Source: a virus
Reading direction: 5' to 3' (one strand)
Virus record (IMG/VR): IMGVR_UViG_3300002898_000054
Location: 1-30,364 of that record
DNA length: 30,364 nucleotides
The notes under the pieces are model-generated. The model saw only the letters and a program-made list of their open reading frames with translations, did not search any database and was not told where the DNA came from. Below, one piece after another: positions 1 to 30,364 of this stretch (position 1 is the first letter of the stretch; every line of letters begins with the position of its first letter). A program made the position numbers and the translations under genes.

Positions 1-390
1 TCACTTAAAACGTTCCAACAGAACATGAAAAGGTATCTACCATTTCGCCAAGCAGTAAAAAAGGGGAAGGAAGTTGCAGACTTTGAAGTGGAGAACGCAC
101 TCTATAAGCGAGCAAAGGGATATTCTTATGAAGAAATAACAAAAGAACTTATTATAATTGACAACGAAACGGGAGAGAAAGAGTTAAGAGTAACAAAAGT
201 AATAACAAAGCATCAAGCACCGGATAACGTGTCAATGATATTTTGGCTTAAAAACAGAATGCCACAACAATGGAAAAACAACCCTGATGGAGATAATACA
301 GACGATAGAGCGTACAAAGCACTTGATGATTTTACAAAGGCTTTAGGTAAAACACCAATCCCAAGCAGAGAACAGGACGAGGATATCTAA
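1..390 (+). CDS. terS: terminase small subunit, C-terminal part (gene starts at 30160 and continues across the circular junction; the ORF-track start at 25 is internal)
   Basis: The frame is open from base 1 and in phase with ATG 30160 (30286 equals base 1). The ALYKRAKGYSYEE...IFWLKNRMPQQWKN pattern is typical of Gram-positive phage TerS. It lies directly upstream of terL. Confidence 0.8.
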   Translation, partial: SLKTFQQNMKRYLPFRQAVKKGKEVADFEVENALYKRAKGYSYEEITKELIIIDNETGEKELRVTKVITKHQAPDNVSMIFWLKNRMPQQWKNNPDGDNTDDRAYKALDDFTKALGKTPIPSREQDEDI

Positions 391-14788: not shown

Positions 14789-15094
14789 ATGACACAAATA
14801 TTTGCACAACTTATCACAGCAATAGGAATTTTAGCATTTTTAGTAACAGTAATAATCGAGGTAATAAAGGGTGTATCTTGTTTTAAGAAAATACCTACAA
14901 ACTTGATTGTTTTAATCTTGTCGATTATTTTAACCGTAACAGGTGGAGTAGTCTACATTCAAATTCAAGGCATACCATTCTTATGGTTTTATGCAATCGC
15001 ACTTTTAATCTTAGGTTTTATCGTATCGTTCCTGGCAATGTTTGGGTGGGATAAACTAAGCGAATTATTTAATCGGTTTAAGAAAGGGGAATAA
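14789..15094 (+). CDS. holin
   Basis: 101 aa with three hydrophobic segments and a charged C-terminus (NRFKKGE). It lies directly upstream of the endolysin behind an AAGGAG RBS. Confidence 0.75.
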   Translation: MTQIFAQLITAIGILAFLVTVIIEVIKGVSCFKKIPTNLIVLILSIILTVTGGVVYIQIQGIPFLWFYAIALLILGFIVSFLAMFGWDKLSELFNRFKKGE

Positions 15095-15895
15095 ATGAAA
15101 CAACCAGTGAATTATAAACAGTTTGATAAACGATGGAAGAACGTTTCCTATTCAACGGTAGGAGAAAGCACTACGATTGGTAGAGCAGGGTGTGGAACAA
15201 CTTGTTCTGCTATGGTAATCGCAACACTCAAGGATAAGTCCGTAACACCAGTAACAACGTCAAAATGGAGCGTTTTAAACGGTTACAAATATAAGGGTGG
15301 TGGTACACATTACGGTTATTTTGTACCACAACTTGAATTGTATGGAATAGGGTGTGAGCGAATTAACACCACAAATAATTATGGCAATAAGTGTGGATCA
15401 TATTCAATGAAAGCACAGAATGCGTTGAGAGAACGCAAATGGCTAATTTGTTGTGTTGGGAAAGGCGTTTGGACAAGTGGTGGACACTACATTTTAGTTT
15501 ACGGTTTATTGAACGGAGAAGTGTATGTAAACGACCCTGCGTCTAATTCTTCAAGCCGAGCCAAAAACAAGTGGAGTAATTTAGAAAACCAAACTAAATA
15601 CTATTGGATAATTGATGCGCCTGAATTTCCAAGAGAAACAAACCCATACAAAGAGCCGAGCATAACACTTAAAAAGAATTACATTCGTGGAATTAAAGCA
15701 AGTGAAGGTGTTAAGTGGTTACAATGGGAGTTACAAAGAAAATCTTTTTATCTAGGAAAAGTCGATGGATACTTTGGTCCACAAACAGAGTGTGCTTTCA
15801 GAAAATTTCAAGAAACAAACCCGGGGAGTTATTATCCAAGCAAAACACCTGATTTGAAGTGTGGAAAAAAATCGAGAGCATTATTAAAACTATGA
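15095..15895 (+). CDS. endolysin: N-terminal cysteine peptidase (C39-like/CHAP-like) + C-terminal PG_binding_1 domain
   Basis: The YKQFDKRWKNVSY...IGRAGCGTTCSAMV catalytic-Cys motif is followed by a C-terminal GKVDGYFGPQTECAFRKFQ peptidoglycan-binding motif. Confidence 0.85.
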   Translation: MKQPVNYKQFDKRWKNVSYSTVGESTTIGRAGCGTTCSAMVIATLKDKSVTPVTTSKWSVLNGYKYKGGGTHYGYFVPQLELYGIGCERINTTNNYGNKCGSYSMKAQNALRERKWLICCVGKGVWTSGGHYILVYGLLNGEVYVNDPASNSSSRAKNKWSNLENQTKYYWIIDAPEFPRETNPYKEPSITLKKNYIRGIKASEGVKWLQWELQRKSFYLGKVDGYFGPQTECAFRKFQETNPGSYYPSKTPDLKCGKKSRALLKL

Positions 15896-15906
15896 AAGAG
15901 GAAAAC

Positions 15907-16176
15907 ATGAATGATAAGAACGATTGTCCTTTCAAAGAAATGATTGAACGAAATCAAAAAGACATTTGCGAATTAACAAACGAAATTAAAAATCTCACAA
16001 AAGGGCAGACAAAAATTGAAACGTTGTTTTCTTACATTATGACTAGCATGGATAAAATGCAGGGGCAACTAGAATTTCTAACATCAGCAGGGAACAGGAA
16101 GTGGGATAAGTTGGTTTGGATAATTATCGGTGCAGTTGTCGGCATATTGTCAGGAGTTATTGCAGGTGGATCGTAA
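15907..16176 (+). CDS. XhlA-like lysis accessory membrane protein
   Basis: 89 aa with an N-terminal coiled region and a single C-terminal TM (LVWIIIGAVVGILSGVIAGG). It is the last gene of the lysis cassette. The start is ambiguous: ATG 15907 follows AAGAGG, and ATG 15892 forms an ATGA overlap. Confidence 0.6.
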   Translation: MNDKNDCPFKEMIERNQKDICELTNEIKNLTKGQTKIETLFSYIMTSMDKMQGQLEFLTSAGNRKWDKLVWIIIGAVVGILSGVIAGGS

Positions 16177-16185
16177 CACATTTCA

Positions 16186-16226
16186 AAAGCACTTACTGTA
16201 AAAGGTAGGTGCTTTTGTTTATTTTT
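16186..16226 (+). terminator. rho-independent terminator ending the late operon
   Basis: An 11-bp stem (AAAGCACTTAC / GTAGGTGCTTT, one G-U pair) with an 8-nt loop, followed by TGTTTATTTTT. Confidence 0.8.
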
Positions 16227-16273
16227 ACCAATAAAACCGTGTAAAGTTTAGTGCTTTTTATGTTCCTTTTGTA

Positions 16274-16301
16274 TTGCTTTCGTATTGCTATATGCTATAA
16301 T
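16274..16301 (+). promoter_or_regulatory. probable promoter (extended -10)
   Basis: TTGCTT, a 16-bp spacer, then TGcTATAAT (TATAAT at 16296-16301). Confidence 0.4.
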
Positions 16302-16339
16302 GGAATTACCAAACAACCACACAAAAAAGGAGGTAACAA

Positions 16340-16549
16340 ATGTATTTAGAAGATTTGCTAGAAACGATATGTGCTTTGCAGATAGTAGAAATCGAAGATA
16401 CAAACGGAAAAGTTTTATATCATGGAGAAAGAAAGAAATTTGAATATTCAGACATGATCCCTTTTTCTGATGATACAGTAACTGGAGTTGCAACAAACCC
16501 AAGAGACGATGTTTTGTATATCGAAGTTGAAGTAACTCATAACATTTAA
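16340..16549 (+). CDS. hypothetical protein
   Basis: 69 aa behind an excellent RBS (AAAGGAGGT). No recognisable motif. Confidence 0.6.
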   Translation: MYLEDLLETICALQIVEIEDTNGKVLYHGERKKFEYSDMIPFSDDTVTGVATNPRDDVLYIEVEVTHNI

Positions 16550-16563
16550 TAGGAGATTTAATA

Positions 16564-17133
16564 ATGAAATTTAAAGTTTTAATAATATTCGAAGTTCTAA
16601 TTTTTCTAATATCCATCATATTACTAAGTTTAACGATTAAAAGTTCAAAAGTAGAAGTAATTGAAATCGAGCGAATAAGAGCAGATAAATTATTCAACGA
16701 GCAAATTAACGAAGAAGTGGAAGAAGTTGCTCAAACAGAAGAAAATCGGCTCACGATTGCGTATCAAGGAGAAGATTATACACTCACAATCATAAGCAAA
16801 GAAGATTTAGACGTGTTAGAGCGATGCGTGGAAGCAGAAGCAGGCAATCAAGGTCTACTAGGAAAGCAATATGTAACAGATGTTATTCTAAACAGAATGT
16901 ATAGTGACGATTACCCAAATTCAATAACAGGTGTTATTTATCAAGAAAACCAATTCGAAGTTGTGAACTGTGGAACGATCGAAACCATAAATGTTAGCGA
17001 AGAAACAAAAGAAGCAATCCAACTTGAATTAGAGAGTAGACTTGATGAAAGCATTATCCATTTTAAGACAAAAGACTACCACAAGTTTGGAGAGCCAATG
17101 TTCCAACACAAAGACCATTACTTTAGTAAATAA
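16564..17133 (+). CDS. membrane-anchored cell wall hydrolase, SleB/Hydrolase_2 family
   Basis: N-terminal TM (VLIIFEVLIFLISIILLSL) followed by LERCVEAEAGNQGLLGKQYVTDVILNRM...VIYQENQFEVV, characteristic of SleB-type hydrolases. Confidence 0.8.
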   Translation: MKFKVLIIFEVLIFLISIILLSLTIKSSKVEVIEIERIRADKLFNEQINEEVEEVAQTEENRLTIAYQGEDYTLTIISKEDLDVLERCVEAEAGNQGLLGKQYVTDVILNRMYSDDYPNSITGVIYQENQFEVVNCGTIETINVSEETKEAIQLELESRLDESIIHFKTKDYHKFGEPMFQHKDHYFSK

Positions 17134-17136
17134 GTA

Positions 17137-17166
17137 TTGACAATGTATTTCATCGTGGCGTATAAT
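17137..17166 (+). promoter_or_regulatory. sigma-A type promoter
   Basis: TTGACA (17137-17142), an 18-bp spacer, then TATAAT (17161-17166). The ORF-track start at 17137 lies inside this promoter. Confidence 0.6.
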
Positions 17167-17190
17167 GTAAATATAGAAAGGAGTGAGAAA

Positions 17191-17343
17191 GTGAGAACAG
17201 ACAAAAGGAAATATACAATGCAGATTTTAAATGAACGAGTGGAAAATATCGATAAGATCGCAAAAGAAAAAGACAGAAGCAGACAGTATTTAGTCGGAGT
17301 AGCAATTGAAGAATATTGCAAACGAGAAAGTGAGAAGAAATAA
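17191..17343 (+). CDS. ribbon-helix-helix (CopG/Arc-like) DNA-binding protein
   Basis: GTG 17191 lies 7 nt after AAAGGAG. The 50-aa product has a KRKYTMQILNERVENIDKIAKEKDRSRQYLVGVAIEEY strand-helix-helix pattern. Confidence 0.6.
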   Translation: MRTDKRKYTMQILNERVENIDKIAKEKDRSRQYLVGVAIEEYCKRESEKK

Positions 17344-23110: not shown

Positions 23111-23133
23111 TTGGCGGTAAACCTAAACCGCTA
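23111..23133 (+). other. conserved stem-loop (module A copy)
   Basis: TTGGCGG, a 10-nt loop (TAAACCTAAA), then CCGCTA. There is no U-tract. Its paralogue is at 29174-29197. Confidence 0.45.
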
Positions 23134-23147
23134 GAAAGCGAGGGAAA

Positions 23148-23360
23148 ATGAGCAGTTTTACATTAGCGTCAATTATCAATTCAAGGCGAGTAAATGTTGG
23201 ATTAACACAAGAAGAACTAGCAGAGAAAGTGGGAACAGTCAGAACAACAGTTACAAAGTGGGAAAATGGAACAAGAGAACCAAGTTGGAGTAATTTCGTT
23301 AAGTTATGTGAAGTATTATCACTAGAAGTAAATGACTTTTTAGAAAAGGAGGAAATTTAG
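23148..23360 (+). CDS. XRE-family HTH regulator (Cro/Aca-like), paralogue of 29517..29735
   Basis: 70 aa with a GLTQEELAEKVGTVRTTVTKWENG HTH_3 motif. Confidence 0.8.
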   Translation: MSSFTLASIINSRRVNVGLTQEELAEKVGTVRTTVTKWENGTREPSWSNFVKLCEVLSLEVNDFLEKEEI

Positions 23361-27073: not shown

Positions 27074-27709
27074 ATGATGAAAGTATTAGAACTTTTTGCA
27101 GGAACAAAGTCGATAGGAAAAGAGTTTGAGAAAAAAGGGCATGAAGTGTTTTCTGTTGAGTGGAGCAAGGATTTTGAAAACATTGATATGTATGTTGATA
27201 TATCAGAACTAAAAGCAAAACAGATAATGAAAAAGTTTGGAAAACCTGATATAGTTTGGGCAAGTCCTGATTGCACAACATATTCCATAGCAGCAATATC
27301 ACACCACAGAACAAAATCGGAAAGTGGAAATCTTGATCCTAAAAGTGAATATGCAAAGTTTTGCGATAAAACAAATAAGCACGTTTTAGATTTAATACAA
27401 GAATTAAAACCTAAGTATTATTTTATTGAAAACCCAAGAGGTGCAATGAGGAAAATGGACTTCATGAAAGGTCTGTATAGATATACAGTAACTTATTGTC
27501 AATACGGAGACACGAGAATGAAACCGACGGATATATGGACAAACCACCCAAATCCAAGTTTTAAGCCTATGTGTCATAACGGAGACAGTTGTCATATATC
27601 AGCACCACGAGGAAGTAAAACTGGAACGCAGGGTTTAAAAGGAAGCAAAGAGCGTTCAATAATTCCACAGAAATTGTGCGAACATATTGTAGAAATAAGT
27701 GAGGAATGA
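27074..27709 (+). CDS. orphan DNA (cytosine-5) methyltransferase, compact phage type
   Basis: Motif I is LELFAGTKS, motif IV-like is ASPDCTTYS (catalytic Cys), motif VI is ENPRG, and the C-terminus has RSIIPQKL. No adjacent restriction endonuclease. Confidence 0.7.
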   Translation: MMKVLELFAGTKSIGKEFEKKGHEVFSVEWSKDFENIDMYVDISELKAKQIMKKFGKPDIVWASPDCTTYSIAAISHHRTKSESGNLDPKSEYAKFCDKTNKHVLDLIQELKPKYYFIENPRGAMRKMDFMKGLYRYTVTYCQYGDTRMKPTDIWTNHPNPSFKPMCHNGDSCHISAPRGSKTGTQGLKGSKERSIIPQKLCEHIVEISEE

Positions 27710-27727
27710 ATTATAAACAAAAGGAGA

Positions 27728-28177
27728 ATGATGATAAAAGATAGTGGAGAGCGTACAACATTTAAGACAGGTGCAAAAAGAGACGTGCAAAAAGGTAAAG
27801 GAAGAAATGATCTAATGCCATTGATAGAACTAGGTGCAGTATTAAATGATGAAATAGTTTTATCAGTAGGAGAGTATAACAAAAATAGAAAACTGTCAGT
27901 ATTAGTGAATACATTGAAAATATACATTGAAAAATACATGATGTATAAAACCGAATATGAAATGGCAATTGATTTATCGAAACACTTTGAAAACGGTGCG
28001 AAGAAGTATGGCGAGAGGAATTGGGAAAAAGGAATACCAAAAGAAAGATATGTAGATAGTGCAATCCGTCACTACTTAAAATTCAGAGACGGACAAGAAG
28101 ACGAAAACCACGAAATCGCATTTGTTTGGAATGTAATTTGTTTGATGTGGACAGAGAATAAGGAGAAAGAAGAATGA
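27728..28177 (+). CDS. MazG-like nucleotide pyrophosphohydrolase (DUF5664 / dATP-dGTP diphosphohydrolase-type domain)
   Basis: The pattern is KGKGRNDLMP...HFENGAKKYGERNWEKGIP...AIRHYLKFRDGQEDENHEIAFVWNVICL. Confidence 0.6.
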   Translation: MMIKDSGERTTFKTGAKRDVQKGKGRNDLMPLIELGAVLNDEIVLSVGEYNKNRKLSVLVNTLKIYIEKYMMYKTEYEMAIDLSKHFENGAKKYGERNWEKGIPKERYVDSAIRHYLKFRDGQEDENHEIAFVWNVICLMWTENKEKEE

Positions 28178-28341
28178 ACGTGAGTAAAATAAGGAGAGAA
28201 ATTAAATTCAGGGCAAAAGGGCAAACGGATAATAATTGGCACTATGGACTTCTTTCCTTTAAAAGTGATACACATTGTAAAATCAAAGAAAGTTCATACA
28301 GAACGTATGTTTGTGATAAAATAAAGGTAGATACAAACTAA
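28174..28341 (+). pseudogene. YopX-like N-terminal fragment (55 codons)
   Basis: REIKFRAKGQTDNNWHYG resembles the start of YopX-family proteins. The ORF stops after about one third of the usual length. Confidence 0.35.
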
Positions 28342-28369
28342 CGCACACACACAGAAAGGAAAAAGAAAA

Positions 28370-28582
28370 ATGATTTTAAAAGTTAAAGAAAATGGAGTAT
28401 TCCTATTTATAGACAAGGTGCTAAGTTGCACAACGTCAGACAAAGAGTTTCATATTGATTATGAAAGAGAATGTAGAAACGGGAAAACTGAATATCTATC
28501 ACTTAACATCAAAGGTAGAGAAGCATATTTGCTAAATGACAATGGTAAAACATTATCTGTACTTAGCAATGAATTGATGTAA
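28370..28582 (+). CDS. hypothetical protein
   Basis: 70 aa behind an AAAGGAAA RBS. Confidence 0.5.
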   Translation: MILKVKENGVFLFIDKVLSCTTSDKEFHIDYERECRNGKTEYLSLNIKGREAYLLNDNGKTLSVLSNELM

Positions 28583-28598
28583 AAGAATAGGAGGAAAA

Positions 28599-28940
28599 AT
28601 GAAAAATAAAGTAAAGGTATTAGGAGTAGAATACAAAATAGAGTATCATAAACTAGAAGACGATAAGAACCTAGAAAAAGCAGACGGATATATGGATAAG
28701 ACAAAGAAGTTGATAGTTGTAGAAAAAGACTTTAATTCAAACTTAGGAAATCCGAAGAACTATGCAGAAAGTATACTAAGACATGAACTAATACACGCAT
28801 TCTTATATGAAAGTGGAATGTCAAGTAGTAGTTTAAACGCAGACGTTGCGTGGGCAATGAATGAAGAAATGGTTGACTGGTTTGCAATACAAAGTCCAAA
28901 GATATTCAAATGTTTTAAAGAATTAGGGATAGAAAAATGA
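28599..28940 (+). CDS. small HExxH zinc-metallopeptidase-like protein
   Basis: 113 aa with ILRHELIHAFLYESG (HExxH). RBS is TAGGAGGA. Confidence 0.55.
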   Translation: MKNKVKVLGVEYKIEYHKLEDDKNLEKADGYMDKTKKLIVVEKDFNSNLGNPKNYAESILRHELIHAFLYESGMSSSSLNADVAWAMNEEMVDWFAIQSPKIFKCFKELGIEK

Positions 28941-29060
28941 TGAATTGATTAAAATAAAAGAATTTATTGAAAAGCAAAGCGAGGAAGAAAAAAGAGGTGG
29001 TCGCAAGGCTGCCTTGTTACTAAAAAAACAATAAAAGTACAATAAAGTTATAAATAAGTG

Positions 29061-29089
29061 TTGACAAGTGTGTAATACAATGATATAAT
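29061..29089 (+). promoter_or_regulatory. strong promoter (module B), paralogous to 22396..22424
   Basis: TTGACA, a 17-bp spacer, then TGaTATAAT, which is consensus at both hexamers plus an extended -10. Confidence 0.7.
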
Positions 29090-29173
29090 TTACTTAGAAG
29101 TTAAGAAAACAAGCACACAAGGAGAACAAAATGAAAGAAATGAATTAAAAGTATTATTTAATTAAATAAAGGG

Positions 29174-29197
29174 TTGGCGGCAATCCATAAACCGCCA
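29174..29197 (+). other. conserved stem-loop (module B copy)
   Basis: TTGGCGG, an 11-nt loop (CAATCCATAAA), then CCGCCA. One G-U pair in copy A is a G-C pair here. Confidence 0.45.
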
Positions 29198-29217
29198 TTA
29201 AACAAGGAGGAAACAAT

Positions 29218-29535
29218 ATGAGAACAGAATATACTGAAATAAGAAATTTAGCATTTATGCTATGGAACGAAGAAATACCTTTTGAAACCCGTTTTATAAT
29301 GAATGGAATGCAAGTAATATATCCAAATAACAATCTAGAAGAAAGAATTTGTGATGCAATAGAGCATGACGGAAGTTACGGAAGAACAGAAGATAAACTT
29401 GAACTTATGGGGTTGCTTACAAGCGAAGAAAGAAAAAATGATAGCGTAGTAGGAAATTTATCAGCACAAGAAGTATTTGATAGAATAAAAAAACATTTTG
29501 AGAGCGAGGGAAAAGAATGGGAAAATACGATATAG
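29218..29535 (+). CDS. orphan 105-aa protein (candidate anti-defence/early effector)
   Basis: It has an AAGGAGGA RBS and no motif I recognise. It is the first real gene behind the consensus promoter and is followed by an overlapping XRE gene. Confidence 0.6.
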   Translation: MRTEYTEIRNLAFMLWNEEIPFETRFIMNGMQVIYPNNNLEERICDAIEHDGSYGRTEDKLELMGLLTSEERKNDSVVGNLSAQEVFDRIKKHFESEGKEWENTI

Positions 29536-29735
29536 CATCAATCATTAAATCAAGAAGAAAAAACATAGGCTTAACACACAGACAGCTAGCCGATAAATTA
29601 GACGTAACAGTTACCACAATTTCAAGGTGGGAAAATGGAGTAAACGAGCCAGACTCTAGCAAGTTTATCAAAATCTGCAAAGTACTAGCGTTAGAAGTAA
29701 ACGACTTTTTAGAAAGCGAGGAAGAAAAAAGATGA
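29517..29735 (+). CDS. XRE-family HTH regulator (Cro/Aca-like), paralogue of 23148..23360
   Basis: 72 aa with a GLTHRQLADKLDVTVTTISRWENG motif. Roughly half its residues are identical to the other XRE by eye, and both share the C-terminal LEVNDFLE. Confidence 0.8.
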   Translation: MGKYDIASIIKSRRKNIGLTHRQLADKLDVTVTTISRWENGVNEPDSSKFIKICKVLALEVNDFLESEEEKR

Positions 29736-29944
29736 ATTGTAAAAAATGTGGAAGTGATAACGTAACAGTACAGTATAGCGAATATGAGAAATCGAAAAGA
29801 AGATCTGTTTTGTGGAACTTGATGATGATACTATTAACTGGTGGTTTTTGGATTGTTTGGATATTGCTAAGAAACAAAAAGACAAAGACAGTTAAAAACA
29901 AATATGCACTATGTCAGGATTGTGGAAATAGTTGGAAGTTATAA
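29732..29944 (+). CDS. zinc-ribbon membrane protein
   Basis: 70 aa: CKKCG, then a TM segment (LWNLMMILLTGGFWIVWILL), then CQDCG. It has an ATGA overlap with the XRE gene. Confidence 0.55.
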   Translation: MNCKKCGSDNVTVQYSEYEKSKRRSVLWNLMMILLTGGFWIVWILLRNKKTKTVKNKYALCQDCGNSWKL

Positions 29945-29988
29945 GTTTGCAATATGCAGATAGTAGTTGTATAATTAAAGGGAGGTAT

Positions 29989-30117
29989 ATGAAAAAGGTT
30001 TCCAGTATTCCAAATATAGAGGACAGAAAGTCGCAGCAACCTCCTTTCAAAAAAAATAAAAGTTGTGGCTTTGCTGTCTGTTTGAAAAAGGCAATCAATA
30101 AAATAAAAGATACATAG
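29989..30117 (+). CDS. small basic protein (42 aa)
   Basis: ATG 29989 follows AAGGGAGG; the ORF-track start at 29932 lacks an RBS. Confidence 0.4.
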   Translation: MKKVSSIPNIEDRKSQQPPFKKNKSCGFAVCLKKAINKIKDT

Positions 30118-30140
30118 AGAGTTAACGCTCTCTATTTGTG
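30114..30140 (+). terminator. possible terminator / hairpin before the packaging genes
   Basis: ATAGAGAG-TTAACG-CTCTCTAT hairpin followed by a weak TTGTGT tail. Confidence 0.4.
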
Positions 30141-30159
30141 TATAGAAAAGGAGTAGCAG

Positions 30160-30364
30160 ATGGCGAGAGTATCAATATACGATCAATGGAAAGAAGACGA
30201 TGAACTAGAAAACATATTGATTAAACTTGAAGGGTGGGCAAGGCAAGGACTAAGCCAACCACAACTATCTAAAAACTTGGGTATATCACTTAAAACGTTC
30301 CAACAGAACATGAAAAGGTATCTACCATTTCGCCAAGCAGTAAAAAAGGGGAAGGAAGTTGCAG
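30160..30364 (+). CDS. terS: terminase small subunit, N-terminal part (continues at base 80 of the window after the duplicated 79 bp)
   Basis: AAAAGGAG, 6 nt, then ATG 30160. The product begins MARVSIYDQWKEDDELENILIKLEGWARQGLSQPQLSKNLGISLKTFQQ (HTH). It is in frame with 1..390 and gives 171 aa in total. Confidence 0.8.
   Translation, partial: MARVSIYDQWKEDDELENILIKLEGWARQGLSQPQLSKNLGISLKTFQQNMKRYLPFRQAVKKGKEVA
30286..30364. repeat. 79-bp exact repeat of bases 1-79 (circular-closure overlap)
   Basis: Direct comparison of both window ends. Confidence 0.95.

What the first reader, a model, noticed from the sequence alone, without database searches (positions are those of the whole stretch)
29055..29944. 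Acr/aca-like operon: consensus promoter, 5-codon mini-ORF, hairpin, orphan 105-aa gene, overlapping XRE regulator, Zn-ribbon membrane protein
Seen in sequence: the strongest-looking promoter in the genome is TTGACA, 17 bp, then TGaTATAAT (29061-29089). Its leader has GGAG plus an ATG that encodes only MKEMN* (29131-29148), followed by a stem-loop at 29174-29197. Next comes AAGGAGG-ATG 29218 for a 105-aa protein with no motif I can place. A 72-aa XRE HTH gene overlaps that gene by 19 nt, and an ATGA-coupled CxxC-TM-CxxC protein follows. Established knowledge: phage anti-CRISPR and other anti-defence operons are typically small orphan genes behind a strong promoter, followed by an HTH autorepressor (Aca). 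Inference: 29218..29535, and possibly 29732..29944, are candidate immediate-early anti-defence or host-takeover effectors controlled by the XRE protein. I cannot name the target.
Basis: partly seen in the sequence, partly recalled or inferred. Interest (0 to 1): 0.7.

Follow-up and report, generated by a model that had tools for sequence, protein, structure and literature searches.

The report
Swappable early phage cassette with regulator
A small, dispensable gene cassette in a gut phage pairs a very strong promoter with a protein of unknown function and unmatched predicted fold plus a small DNA-binding regulator; it is built like known phage counter-defence operons, but nothing yet shows that it blocks a host defence.

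Summary
The promoter is far beyond chance: 0.001 such sites are expected per genome.

Comparison with sibling contigs changes what the features mean.
- The real unit is a 717-bp cassette, 28996-29712: terminator-like hairpin, promoter P2, leader, gp105 and XRE-2. It is flanked by a 20-nt direct repeat and absent from sibling phages.
- The 5-codon mini-ORF is the relic of a deleted 71-aa gene.
- The "hairpin" is a conserved 25-nt element that recurs just upstream of ribosome-binding sites in this lineage.
- gp105 is not an orphan. It belongs to a large uncharacterised family of gut Clostridia phages (647 cluster representatives). Its predicted fold is confident (pLDDT 93.5) and has no PDB match.
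- gp105 is exactly the extra DNA between the Shine-Dalgarno (SD) sequence and the XRE start codon, relative to a 98%-identical relative.
- The Zn-ribbon membrane gene is not cargo. It belongs to a conserved block with terS.
- Family-wide, gp105 sits among DNA-metabolism genes, not next to HTH genes. No operator repeat is detectable in P2, and a paralogous XRE-1 lies at 23148.

Verdict: an accessory early operon that resembles an acr-aca or Cro-type unit in architecture only. Anti-defence function is possible but untested.

The parts
28976..28995 (+). Left copy of the 20-nt direct repeat (linker) AAAGCGAGGAAGAAAAAAGA that bounds the cassette.
   Evidence: Exact repeat with 29713-29732. Sibling contig L115 carries a single copy, joining window 28612-28995 directly to 29713 onward. 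The core motif RAGCGAGGRA occurs 4 times in the genome against 0.28 expected.
28994..29015 (+). Terminator-like hairpin (9-bp stem) that closes the upstream early operon. It is the first element of the cassette.
   Evidence: dG -11.7 kcal/mol, z = -2.2. It is 95% conserved with L085, where a T-run follows it.
29061..29089 (+). Promoter P2: TTGACA, 17 nt, TGnTATAAT. The transcription start is predicted near 29096.
   Evidence: Homologous promoters precede XRE in L085 and L119 and precede a small-ORF operon in L116.
29096..29217 (+). 5' leader of about 122 nt, a mosaic of segments shared with L086.
   Evidence: blastn against L086: 29096-29124 matches 29/30 and 29164-29217 matches 53/54.
29131..29148 (+). 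Mini-ORF MKEMN*: relic of the start of a deleted 71-aa 4-Cys gene.
   Evidence: L086 has the same leader, SD and ATGAAA, followed by an intact 71-aa ORF. L086 has 224 nt where the window has 39 nt.
29172..29196 (+). Conserved 25-nt hairpin element GGTTGGCGG[Y]AATCCATAAACCGCC, immediately 5' of the SD. It is a cassette boundary and a candidate regulatory RNA or DNA site.
   Evidence: The same element occurs in L086 and L110 and twice in L116. It is always on the + strand, 0-12 nt upstream of an SD. A variant lies at 23111-23132.
29218..29535 (+). gp105: an acidic 105-aa protein (pI 4.6) from a large uncharacterised phage family, with a predicted alpha/beta fold that has no PDB match. It is the cargo gene.
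   Evidence: It is exactly the DNA present in the window and absent in L086 between the SD and the XRE ATG.
29517..29735 (+). XRE-2: 72-aa HTH_3 regulator. It overlaps gp105 by 19 nt and has its own SD, GAGGG 29506-29510.
   Evidence: P0155 is 99% identical and P0156 is 60% identical. Four XRE forms share the C-terminal tail LEVNDFLE.
29713..29732 (+). Right copy of the 20-nt direct repeat. It encodes the XRE C-terminal tail (ESEEEKR) and the SD for the next gene.
29732..29944 (+). Zn-ribbon/TM protein (CxxC, TM, CxxC). It is not part of the cassette; it is the first gene of the conserved block ZnR-TM, P3, orf42, terS, terL.
   Evidence: The identical protein occurs in 8 contigs with six different upstream neighbours. 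The LITAF-like Pfam hit is below threshold. The AF2 single-sequence model is poor, at pLDDT 56.
29947..29975 (+). Promoter-like site P3 (TTGCAA, 17 nt, TATAAT). It lies in the conserved block and is a candidate late promoter.
   Evidence: The block is 99-100% conserved in L109-L113.
29989..30117 (+). 42-aa basic ORF between P3 and the terminator, conserved with the block.
   Evidence: No family hit.
30114..30135 (+). Terminator-like hairpin 24 nt upstream of the terS start at 30160.
   Evidence: dG -12.9 kcal/mol, z = -4.1.
23111..23132 (+). Variant copy of the hairpin element (TTGGCGGTAAACCTAAACCGCT), followed by the linker GAAAGCGAGGGAAAATG.
   Evidence: 3 differences from the core. At the looser cut-off of 5 differences, shuffled windows gave 0.05 hits each.
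23148..23360 (+). XRE-1: paralogue of XRE-2 (57% identity) inside the early operon, upstream of the DnaD-like replication gene.
   Evidence: HTH_3 E = 2.8e-13. BLASTP E = 5e-31.

Best explanation
Window 28996-29712 is a self-contained, dispensable accessory transcription unit, of the 'moron' or acr-aca type in architecture. It sits in the hypervariable slot between the last early gene and the conserved ZnR-TM/P3/terS block of a 30.3-kb siphovirus. The phage has no integrase and probably infects a gut Clostridia host.

Shown:
- The unit is bounded by a 20-nt direct repeat and is absent from sibling phages.
- Cassettes in this lineage are joined at reused linkers: GAAAGCGAGGAAGAA..., which encodes ...ESEEEKR tails and the next SD, and a 25-nt hairpin followed by an SD.
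- gp105 was slotted in exactly between that hairpin-SD and the XRE start.
- An earlier 71-aa cargo gene was deleted, leaving the 5-codon relic.

Inferred:
- The consensus sigma-A promoter with an extended -10 fires on host RNA polymerase as soon as the DNA enters the cell.
- It produces a burst of gp105 and of the translationally coupled XRE-2.
- XRE-2 then feeds back negatively. It would act on P2 DNA, on the conserved hairpin just 5' of the SD, or on both, in the way Cro, Aca1 and Aca2 act. This would stop the very strong promoter from running into the packaging operon.

gp105 is an acidic, well-folded protein with a fixed set of conserved polar residues (E7, Y35, S53, E62, E71, R89). It most likely binds a conserved host or nucleic-acid-related target early in infection. 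An anti-defence or host-takeover role is the leading guess, but it is only a guess.
For: Promoter uniqueness and chance expectation.

Cassette boundaries: the 20-nt direct repeat. L115 joins window 28612-28995 directly to 29713 onward. L109, L111, L112/L113 and L114 join other genes to ZnR-TM at the same linker. L110 is identical to the window over 1539 nt.

Cargo swap: three blocks of 97-98% identity with L086 bracket gp105 (298 nt against 0 nt) and the 71-aa gene (39 nt against 224 nt).

Relatives: P2 plus the terminator are shared with L085, and a similar terminator-promoter-XRE arrangement occurs in L119. In both, XRE is the first gene behind the promoter.

Coupling: 19-nt overlap with its own SD.

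Hairpin element: recurs in front of SDs and in front of XRE-1 and XRE_A.

Published precedent: Aca proteins bind inverted repeats in the core promoter (PMC9410906). Aca2 and Aca1 bind conserved 5'-UTR hairpins, and for Aca2 this blocks ribosome binding to the RBS (PMC13551039).

gp105 is a real, constrained protein: 647 relatives, pLDDT 93.5, conserved columns, pI 4.6.

No integrase or CI was found among all large ORFs.
Against: No inverted repeat beyond chance lies in or around the P2 core promoter. The best is 7/8 at 29089-29109, equalled or beaten in 121 of 300 shuffles.

The hairpin is not thermodynamically exceptional and shows no covariation, because its stem is invariant.

XRE relatives L085, L117 and L119 lack the hairpin.

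The gp105 family is normally not next to an HTH gene and normally lacks its own promoter. It lies among SSB, SNF2 and methylase genes. The pairing seen here may therefore be an accident of cassette shuffling.

The L115 junction rests on one 797-nt contig. L109 and L111-L113 independently lack the cassette, but an assembly join at a short repeat cannot be fully excluded.

No expression or binding data exist.
Confidence: 0.5

Rival explanations
1. Core temporal regulator with a hitchhiking gene. P2 with XRE-2 is the lineage's ordinary Cro-like head of a second (delayed-early) operon. XRE-2 and XRE-1 time the early-to-late switch just upstream of terS. gp105 is a DNA-replication, recombination or nucleotide-metabolism accessory that landed there, with no link to host defence.
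For: In L085 and L119, the terminator-promoter-XRE arrangement heads long operons of ordinary early genes (DUF4406, YopX, DUF3560 and others) that run up to the terminase. A paralogue, XRE-1, lies in the replication operon. The commonest gp105-family neighbours are SSB, SNF2 helicases, DUF551 and methylases, with single cases such as a DNA ligase. Some family members are fused to MazG-like or dATP/dGTP-diphosphohydrolase-like segments. P3 and a terminator lie directly downstream.
Against: The cassette is absent from several siblings that keep the same ZnR-TM/P3/terS block at 99-100% identity, so it is not needed for late-gene control. The fusions are heterogeneous and mostly have no Pfam hit. 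No homology links gp105 to any replication or metabolism family.
Confidence: 0.25
2. A genuine anti-CRISPR/Aca, or other anti-defence, operon. gp105 directly inhibits a host immune system and XRE-2 is its dedicated Aca-type repressor.
For: Architecture: strong promoter, small acidic cargo and a coupled HTH. The cargo is variable in front of a conserved HTH. The unit is dispensable. A conserved 5'-UTR hairpin recalls the Aca1 and Aca2 RNA motifs. A DNA methylase and a dNTP-diphosphohydrolase-like gene lie just upstream.
Against: No similarity to any known Acr or anti-defence protein was found by sequence (Pfam, PHROGs, NCBIfam, tblastn against 50,697 phage records) or by fold. No promoter inverted repeat was found. 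Family-wide, there is no HTH association. The family is broad and well conserved (40-55% identity across Oscillospiraceae, Lachnospiraceae and Acutalibacteraceae prophages); in my experience that breadth is unusual for Acr families, which I did not check here. The host and its defence repertoire are unknown.
Confidence: 0.15
3. A reverse-order type II toxin-antitoxin pair of the HigBA or MqsRA type, with gp105 as toxin and XRE-2 as antitoxin.
For: Overlapping gene pair with a roughly 100-aa protein upstream of an XRE HTH. XRE-2 has weak sub-threshold NCBIfam hits to HipB, Y4mF and MqsA antitoxins.
Against: gp105 relatives almost never have an adjacent HTH: 2 of 131 neighbours, and 44 contexts checked. 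A toxin could not tolerate that. L086 has the same XRE without gp105. All antitoxin hits are far below the curated cut-offs. XRE-2 is a bare HTH domain.
Confidence: 0.03

Closest known systems
acr-aca operons (Aca1, Aca2 and Aca10-type autoregulated anti-CRISPR operons)
   Same: A strong consensus promoter, one small acidic cargo gene and a short HTH gene translationally coupled at the 3' end. The cargo is swappable in front of a conserved HTH. A conserved hairpin lies in the 5' UTR next to the RBS, as described for Aca2 and Aca1 (PMC13551039). The unit is dispensable.
   Different: The cargo has no homology to any Acr, and no inverted repeat lies in the core promoter. The XRE belongs to a subfamily that also heads ordinary early operons and has a paralogue in the replication operon. 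The cargo family is not HTH-associated elsewhere. No link to a CRISPR or other defence system is known.
PeSL cassettes of T4-type phages (promoter-early stem-loop; Arbiol et al. 2010, PMC2839356)
   Same: Strong sigma-70-type promoters combined with stem-loops flank small non-essential ORFs in hyperplastic regions. Recombination between repeated short motifs creates insertions, deletions and replacements between close relatives.
   Different: This is a different phage type: a small siphovirus of Gram-positive gut bacteria. The repeated motifs here are a coding linker (ESEEEKR tail plus SD) and a 25-nt non-terminator hairpin, not a promoter-terminator composite. Mini-circles have not been shown.
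Lambdoid 'morons' and the PR-cro arrangement (from my own knowledge)
   Same: An autonomous promoter-gene unit inserted between conserved genes and preceded by a terminator. A small Cro-like HTH in the operon behind a strong early promoter is expected to shut it off.
   Different: There is no divergent cI or lysogeny module, and no integrase in the genome. There is no terminator at the 3' end of the unit, so it reads into ZnR-TM. Classical morons are expressed from prophages, whereas this phage appears to be virulent.
HigBA/MqsRA-type toxin-antitoxin pairs
   Same: The gene order: a roughly 100-aa protein followed by an overlapping XRE-HTH gene.
   Different: The partnership is not conserved in the gp105 family, and the same XRE occurs without gp105.

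Membership tests
acr-aca operon | An HTH (Aca) gene lies in the same operon, directly downstream of a small cargo gene, behind a recognisable promoter. | tested here: met
   P2 at 29061-29089; gp105 at 29218-29535; XRE at 29517-29735 overlapping by 19 nt.
acr-aca operon | The cargo is, or is homologous to, a protein shown to inhibit CRISPR-Cas or another defence. | tested here: not met
   No hit in Pfam, PHROGs or NCBIfam, the PDB by sequence profile, the PDB by fold (best E = 0.8) or 50,697 phage genomes (one weak uncultured hit). Dedicated anti-defence HMM sets such as dbAPIS were not available.
acr-aca operon | A conserved inverted-repeat operator lies within the core promoter (PMC9410906). 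| tested here: inconclusive
   The best inverted repeat at P2 is 7/8 at 29089-29109, matched or beaten in 121 of 300 shuffles. None is better in the homologous promoters of L085 and L116. Too few independent promoters are available for motif discovery.
acr-aca operon | The HTH belongs to a described Aca family (Aca1-Aca14). | not testable with these tools
   No Aca HMMs are held. NCBIfam gives only sub-threshold generic XRE hits (RstR, HipB-like, DicA).
acr-aca operon | The regulator is conserved and the cargo varies between related elements (the guilt-by-association pattern). | tested here: met
   XRE_A is 98% identical in L086 and is preceded there by a 71-aa 4-Cys gene instead of gp105. In the reverse direction the test fails: the gp105 family is not HTH-linked.
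acr-aca operon | The HTH represses the operon's own promoter or mRNA. | not testable with these tools
   This needs an EMSA or a reporter assay.
Pfam HTH_3 (XRE/Cro-C1 type) | A score above the Pfam gathering threshold. | tested here: met
   56.5 bits against a cut-off of 23, E = 2.9e-15. The paralogue XRE-1 scores 50.1 bits.
LITAF-like zinc ribbon (PF10601) | A score above the gathering threshold, and the layout CxxC, hydrophobic membrane segment, CxxC. | tested here: inconclusive
   19.6 bits against a cut-off of 23.8. The CxxC/TM/CxxC layout is visible in the sequence. The AF2 model is too poor to compare, at pLDDT 56.5.
Moron (autonomous promoter-gene-terminator insert) | The unit has its own promoter, is insulated by terminators, and is present or absent between otherwise collinear relatives. 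| tested here: met
   The promoter and the upstream hairpin are present. Presence or absence is shown against L115, L111 and L109. There is no terminator at the 3' end, so this feature is only partly met.
PeSL-type shuffling cassette | Repeated short regulatory motifs flank non-essential ORFs and mark indel or replacement junctions between close relatives. | tested here: met
   The linker occurs 4 times in the window against 0.28 expected. All upstream partners of ZnR-TM join at it, except L112 and L113, which keep only its 3' end (GAGAAAAAAGATGA). The hairpin element is repeated. This is an analogy only; it is not the T4-type motif.
Type II toxin-antitoxin (toxin followed by XRE antitoxin) | Toxin and antitoxin are adjacent across the whole family. 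| tested here: not met
   Only 2 of 131 neighbours across 44 non-redundant gp105-family contexts are HTH_3, and one of those is the window's own XRE.

The most novel reading that the evidence does not exclude
gp105 founds a widespread family of early phage effectors in gut Clostridia phages, either counter-defence or host-takeover, with a fold that has no solved counterpart. In this lineage its production is gated by an XRE protein that, like Aca2, recognises a conserved hairpin placed just 5' of the ribosome-binding site. This would be HTH-mediated translational control in Gram-positive gut phages. The same hairpin would double as a recombination linker that lets cargo genes be swapped.
Probability: 0.17. 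Interest if true: 0.72.

Novelty: new member of a known kind. Interest (0 to 1): 0.42.

Why it matters
If XRE-2 really gates this cassette, it offers a compact and testable example of Aca/Cro-style feedback in uncultured phages of gut Firmicutes, where almost no regulatory circuits have been characterised.

gp105 represents a family of several hundred sequence clusters with a confident predicted fold, no structural relative and no annotation. A function for it would annotate genes in many gut phages and prophages.

The reused linkers and the hairpin show how small genes are exchanged at one hotspot just upstream of the packaging genes. Such slots are useful places to mine for accessory and counter-defence genes.

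As it stands, the finding is a good candidate locus and not a demonstrated system.

Tried and rejected
- DNA similarity to GenBank phages found nothing.
- The word-indexed protein search made gp105 look like an orphan (4 hits). The exhaustive search overturned that.
- Fusion partners of long family members, used as functional hints, are heterogeneous. Nine of ten have no convincing Pfam domain, and one is a likely chimeric call with an oxidoreductase.
- Foldseek and a sequence profile against the PDB gave no significant match. BFVD returned only uncharacterised family members.
- The Rfam scan of 28500-30364 found nothing.
- The hairpin as an intrinsic terminator or attenuator was rejected. It has no U-tract, z = -1.1, and an alternative overlapping hairpin exists.
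- The mini-ORF as a leader peptide was rejected in favour of a deletion relic.
- The operator search by inverted repeats at P1, P2, P3 and the L085 and L116 promoters found nothing beyond chance. By eye, the promoters share TAAGTGTTG at the -35 and a spacer motif, but neither tracks the XRE allele.
- The toxin-antitoxin reading was rejected from the family context.
- Scans of IMG/VR with the hairpin found no hits. The single metagenome scan gave one contig, L116.
- AF2 of the Zn-ribbon protein without an alignment gave pLDDT 56.5 and was unusable, so no fold search was run.
- A first MAFFT alignment of the window leader against L086 mis-paired the segments. blastn-short gave the correct blocks.
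- A covariance model of the hairpin was not built.
Full report
**1. The genome.** The window is a complete circular phage genome. Its first and last 79 nt are identical, which gives 30,285 unique bp at 34.4% GC. All convincing genes are on the + strand.
- terS wraps the ends (30160-30364 plus 80-390; phrog_309).
- It is followed by terL, portal, minor head protein, scaffold, tape measure, Dit and other tail genes, then a lysis region at about 14789-17133.
- A perfect consensus promoter, P1, lies at 17137. Behind it is an early operon: Erf-like protein, NinB, HNH, RusA, SSB, a DUF3560-like protein, XRE-1, DnaD-like protein, helicase loader, DNA methylase, a dATP/dGTP-diphosphohydrolase-like protein and a small HExxH protein.
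- No integrase or CI-type repressor was found among the large ORFs.
- The nearest cultured TerL is from Ruminococcus gnavus phage RG-TP1, at 37.5% identity.

The finding lies between the last early gene, which ends at 28940, and terS.

**2. The observation.**
- TTGACA, 17 nt, TGaTATAAT lies at 29061-29089.
- GGAG is followed by the MKEMN* ORF at 29131-29148.
- The inverted repeat TGGCGG/CCGCCA lies at 29175-29197.
- AAGGAGG is followed by ATG at 29218, opening a 105-aa ORF.
- A 72-aa HTH_3 gene overlaps that ORF by 19 nt.
- A 70-aa gene with the layout CxxC, TM, CxxC is coupled to it by an ATGA overlap.

P2 is the only site in the genome that combines 12/12 hexamer matches, a 17-nt spacer and an extended -10. 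The expectation for such a site is 0.001 per genome.

The hairpin is not a terminator and is not unusually stable. Rfam has no match.

**3. The real unit is a 717-bp cassette.** The Zn-ribbon/TM protein is 100% identical in 8 contigs from independent samples. In all of them that extend far enough, it is followed by the same orf42, terS and terL at 99-100% nucleotide identity.

What lies upstream of it differs:

| Contig | Upstream of ZnR-TM |
|---|---|
| L110 | Identical to the window |
| L115 | The HExxH gene (window 28612-28995, 86% identity), joined directly to window 29713 |
| L109 | A DUF3560 gene |
| L111 | A 56-aa acidic ORF |
| L112, L113 | A 170-aa protein |
| L114 | Another XRE allele |

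In most of these contigs the join falls in the sequence GAAAGCGAGGAAGAAAAAAGATGA. L112 and L113 keep only its 3' end.

In the window this 20-nt stretch occurs twice as an exact direct repeat, at 28976-28995 and 29713-29732. The two copies bracket the terminator-like hairpin, P2, the leader, gp105 and XRE-2. Deleting one repeat copy and the DNA between the two copies reproduces the L115 arrangement.

The core motif RAGCGAGGRA occurs four times in the genome against 0.28 expected. Three of the four copies lie just before a gene start, and the fourth is the left repeat copy at 28977.

The cassette is therefore a discrete, dispensable module. The Zn-ribbon gene belongs to the conserved packaging-proximal block, not to the cassette.

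**4. The inside of the cassette is also a mosaic.** L086 carries an XRE that is 98% identical at the DNA level (207/211). blastn finds only three shared blocks:
- the leader, 29096-29124 (29/30);
- the hairpin plus SD, 29164-29217 (53/54);
- the XRE itself, 29516-29726.

Between blocks 1 and 2, L086 has 224 nt that encode a 71-aa 4-Cys protein. The window has 39 nt there. The window keeps that gene's SD, ATG and first Lys codon and then stops, so MKEMN* is a deletion relic.

Between blocks 2 and 3, L086 has nothing: the hairpin-SD runs straight into the XRE ATG. The window has the 298 nt of gp105 there. The 3' end of gp105 itself carries a linker-like SD (GAGAGCGAGGGAAAAGAATG) that serves the XRE.

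The same regulator is thus preceded by different cargo genes in near-identical phages.

In the more distant L085 (XRE 60% identical), the terminator and promoter are homologous to the window's (53/56 over the hairpin). XRE is the first gene behind the promoter and is followed by an unrelated 69-aa ORF. L119 has the same terminator-promoter-XRE layout, followed by a string of small ORFs.

**5. The hairpin is a repeated lineage element.** The 25-nt sequence GGTTGGCGG[Y]AATCCATAAACCGCC occurs once in the window, once in L086, once in L110 and twice in L116. L116 is a 1.16-kb contig with a P2-like consensus promoter followed by small Cys-rich ORFs. Every copy is on the coding strand, 0-12 nt upstream of an SD.

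A variant with three differences lies at window 23111-23132, immediately before the linker and the paralogue XRE-1. At the looser cut-off of five differences, shuffled windows gave 0.05 hits each.

The stem is invariant, so covariation cannot be assessed. The loop sequence is conserved as well, which points to sequence-specific recognition or to a recombination role rather than simple folding.

[quoted passage not shown] For Aca2 this blocks ribosome binding to the RBS and so represses translation (PMC13551039). That is a lead for this element, not a demonstration.

**6. gp105.**
- It has no Pfam, PHROG or NCBIfam hit.
- The exhaustive search finds 647 cluster representatives at E <= 1e-3 and 223 at E <= 1e-10. 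Most are stand-alone proteins of 90-140 aa.
- Relatives occur in IMG/VR gut phages. They also occur in genome contigs, presumably prophages, of Oscillospiraceae, Lachnospiraceae, Acutalibacteraceae and Ruminococcaceae MAGs.
- No cultured phage has one.
- Eight of 70 family members hit phrog_4074, whose function is unknown.
- With a 70-sequence alignment, AlphaFold gives pLDDT 93.5 and pTM 0.85. The topology is helix, four strands, short helix, strand, long helix.
- Foldseek finds nothing in the PDB (best E = 0.8). In BFVD it finds only uncharacterised family members.
- The conserved columns include E7, Y35, S53, E62, E71 and R89.
- The protein is acidic (pI 4.6; family median 4.86).

**7. Family-wide context argues against a dedicated HTH partnership.** I surveyed 44 non-redundant loci. 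The 131 same-strand neighbours within two genes of the family member are dominated by SSB, SNF2/ResIII helicases, DUF551 and DNA methylases. Only 2 are HTH_3, and one of those is the window's own XRE.

The gene directly downstream is extremely variable. In L001 and L003 the gene is embedded in the replication module and has no promoter of its own.

This rules out a toxin-antitoxin reading. It also means that, starting from gp105, guilt by association points to the early DNA-metabolism and accessory region in general, not to Aca-type loci.

**8. The XRE.** XRE-2 is a bare HTH_3 domain. The window encodes a paralogue, XRE-1, at 23148-23360 (57% identity).

Four XRE forms are known in this lineage: the two window paralogues (XRE-1 and XRE-2, the latter also in L086), L114 and L085. 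They share the C-terminal tail LEVNDFLE but differ in the recognition-helix region. The last 63 nt of the gene are 95% identical between the window and L085, although the proteins are only 60% identical. The gene's 3' end therefore also acts as a recombination linker.

No inverted repeat beyond chance was found at P2, P1, P3 or the homologous promoters. Autoregulation is inferred from position and precedent only.

**9. Interpretation.** The best-supported reading is an accessory, self-promoted early cassette with Cro/Aca-like feedback, placed at a recombination hotspot. The cassette boundaries, the cargo swap and the dispensability are shown. The timing, the repression by XRE-2, the role of the hairpin and any counter-defence activity of gp105 are inferred.

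The main rival (0.25) is that P2 with XRE is simply the lineage's second early-operon head and that gp105 is a DNA-metabolism accessory. A genuine acr-aca or other anti-defence operon is possible (0.15). A toxin-antitoxin pair is unlikely (0.03).

**10. Comparison with known systems and verdict.**
- The locus works like an acr-aca operon or a PR-cro unit. It fails or cannot be tested on the membership criteria that matter: a known Acr, a promoter inverted repeat and a known Aca family.
- The shuffling mechanism resembles the PeSL cassettes of T4-type phages (PMC2839356) and lambdoid morons, but it uses different motifs.

I rate it a new member of a known kind, with moderate interest. Its value is as a well-delimited candidate locus and as an entry point to a large, structurally unmatched phage protein family.

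Noticed in passing
window 1-79 and 30286-30364: The first and last 79 nt are identical. The contig is therefore a complete circular assembly of 30,285 bp, and terS (30160 to the end, then 80-390) is split by the assembly break.
   Followed up: yes
window 23111-23360: A second XRE gene, XRE-1 (70 aa, 57% identical to XRE-2), lies in the early operon. It is preceded by a variant of the same hairpin element and by the linker GAAAGCGAGGGAAAATG. Two paralogous small HTH regulators in one 30-kb phage genome with no integrase detected.
   Followed up: partly
window 23136, 28977, 29502, 29714; also L085, L086, L109-L115, L119: A reused intercistronic linker, RAGCGAGGRA. It encodes C-terminal tails such as ...ESEEEKR or ...ESEDK and supplies the next gene's SD. 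Gene-cassette junctions fall in it across the lineage, which suggests linker-mediated homologous recombination.
   Followed up: partly
L116 1-1160 (JGI Ga0307992_1101994): A contig with a P2-like consensus promoter (TTGACA, 17 nt, TATAAT at 58-86). Four small ORFs follow, two of them Cys-rich. Two exact copies of the 25-nt hairpin and one GC-rich variant lie between them, each copy just 5' of an SD.
   Followed up: partly
window 17137-17343: P1 is the only other perfect consensus promoter (TTGACA, 18 nt, TATAAT). It shares TAAATAAGTnTTGACAA with P2. The first ORF behind it probably starts at the GTG near 17192 and looks like a small ribbon-helix-helix protein. It has only a weak BrnA-antitoxin-like hit (E = 0.0023).
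   Followed up: no
window 29947-30135: A conserved promoter-like site, P3, then a basic 42-aa ORF, then a strong terminator-like hairpin 24 nt before terS. Late transcription would need read-through or antitermination here. This region may be the late-gene control region.
   Followed up: no
window 27074-28940: Three genes lie just upstream of the cassette: a DNA methyltransferase (phrog_757), a dATP/dGTP-diphosphohydrolase N-domain protein (PF18909, E = 7.6e-17) and a 113-aa HExxH protein (phrog_1233; weak peptidase-like hits). This is a stretch of possible DNA-modification or anti-restriction functions.
   Followed up: no
L086 228-275 and L085 4065: L086 carries its own relic ORF, MTNEEVKKTKHTRRT*. 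It fuses the start of a gene that is intact in L085 (116 aa, MTNEEAAKK...) to the P2-type leader. L086 has no promoter there, so the leader segment can occur without P2.
   Followed up: partly
window 16248-16697 (- strand): This is one of the largest minus-strand ORFs (149 aa, TTG start). It has no family hit and overlaps a + strand endolysin-like gene (16564-17133), so it is probably spurious.
   Followed up: partly
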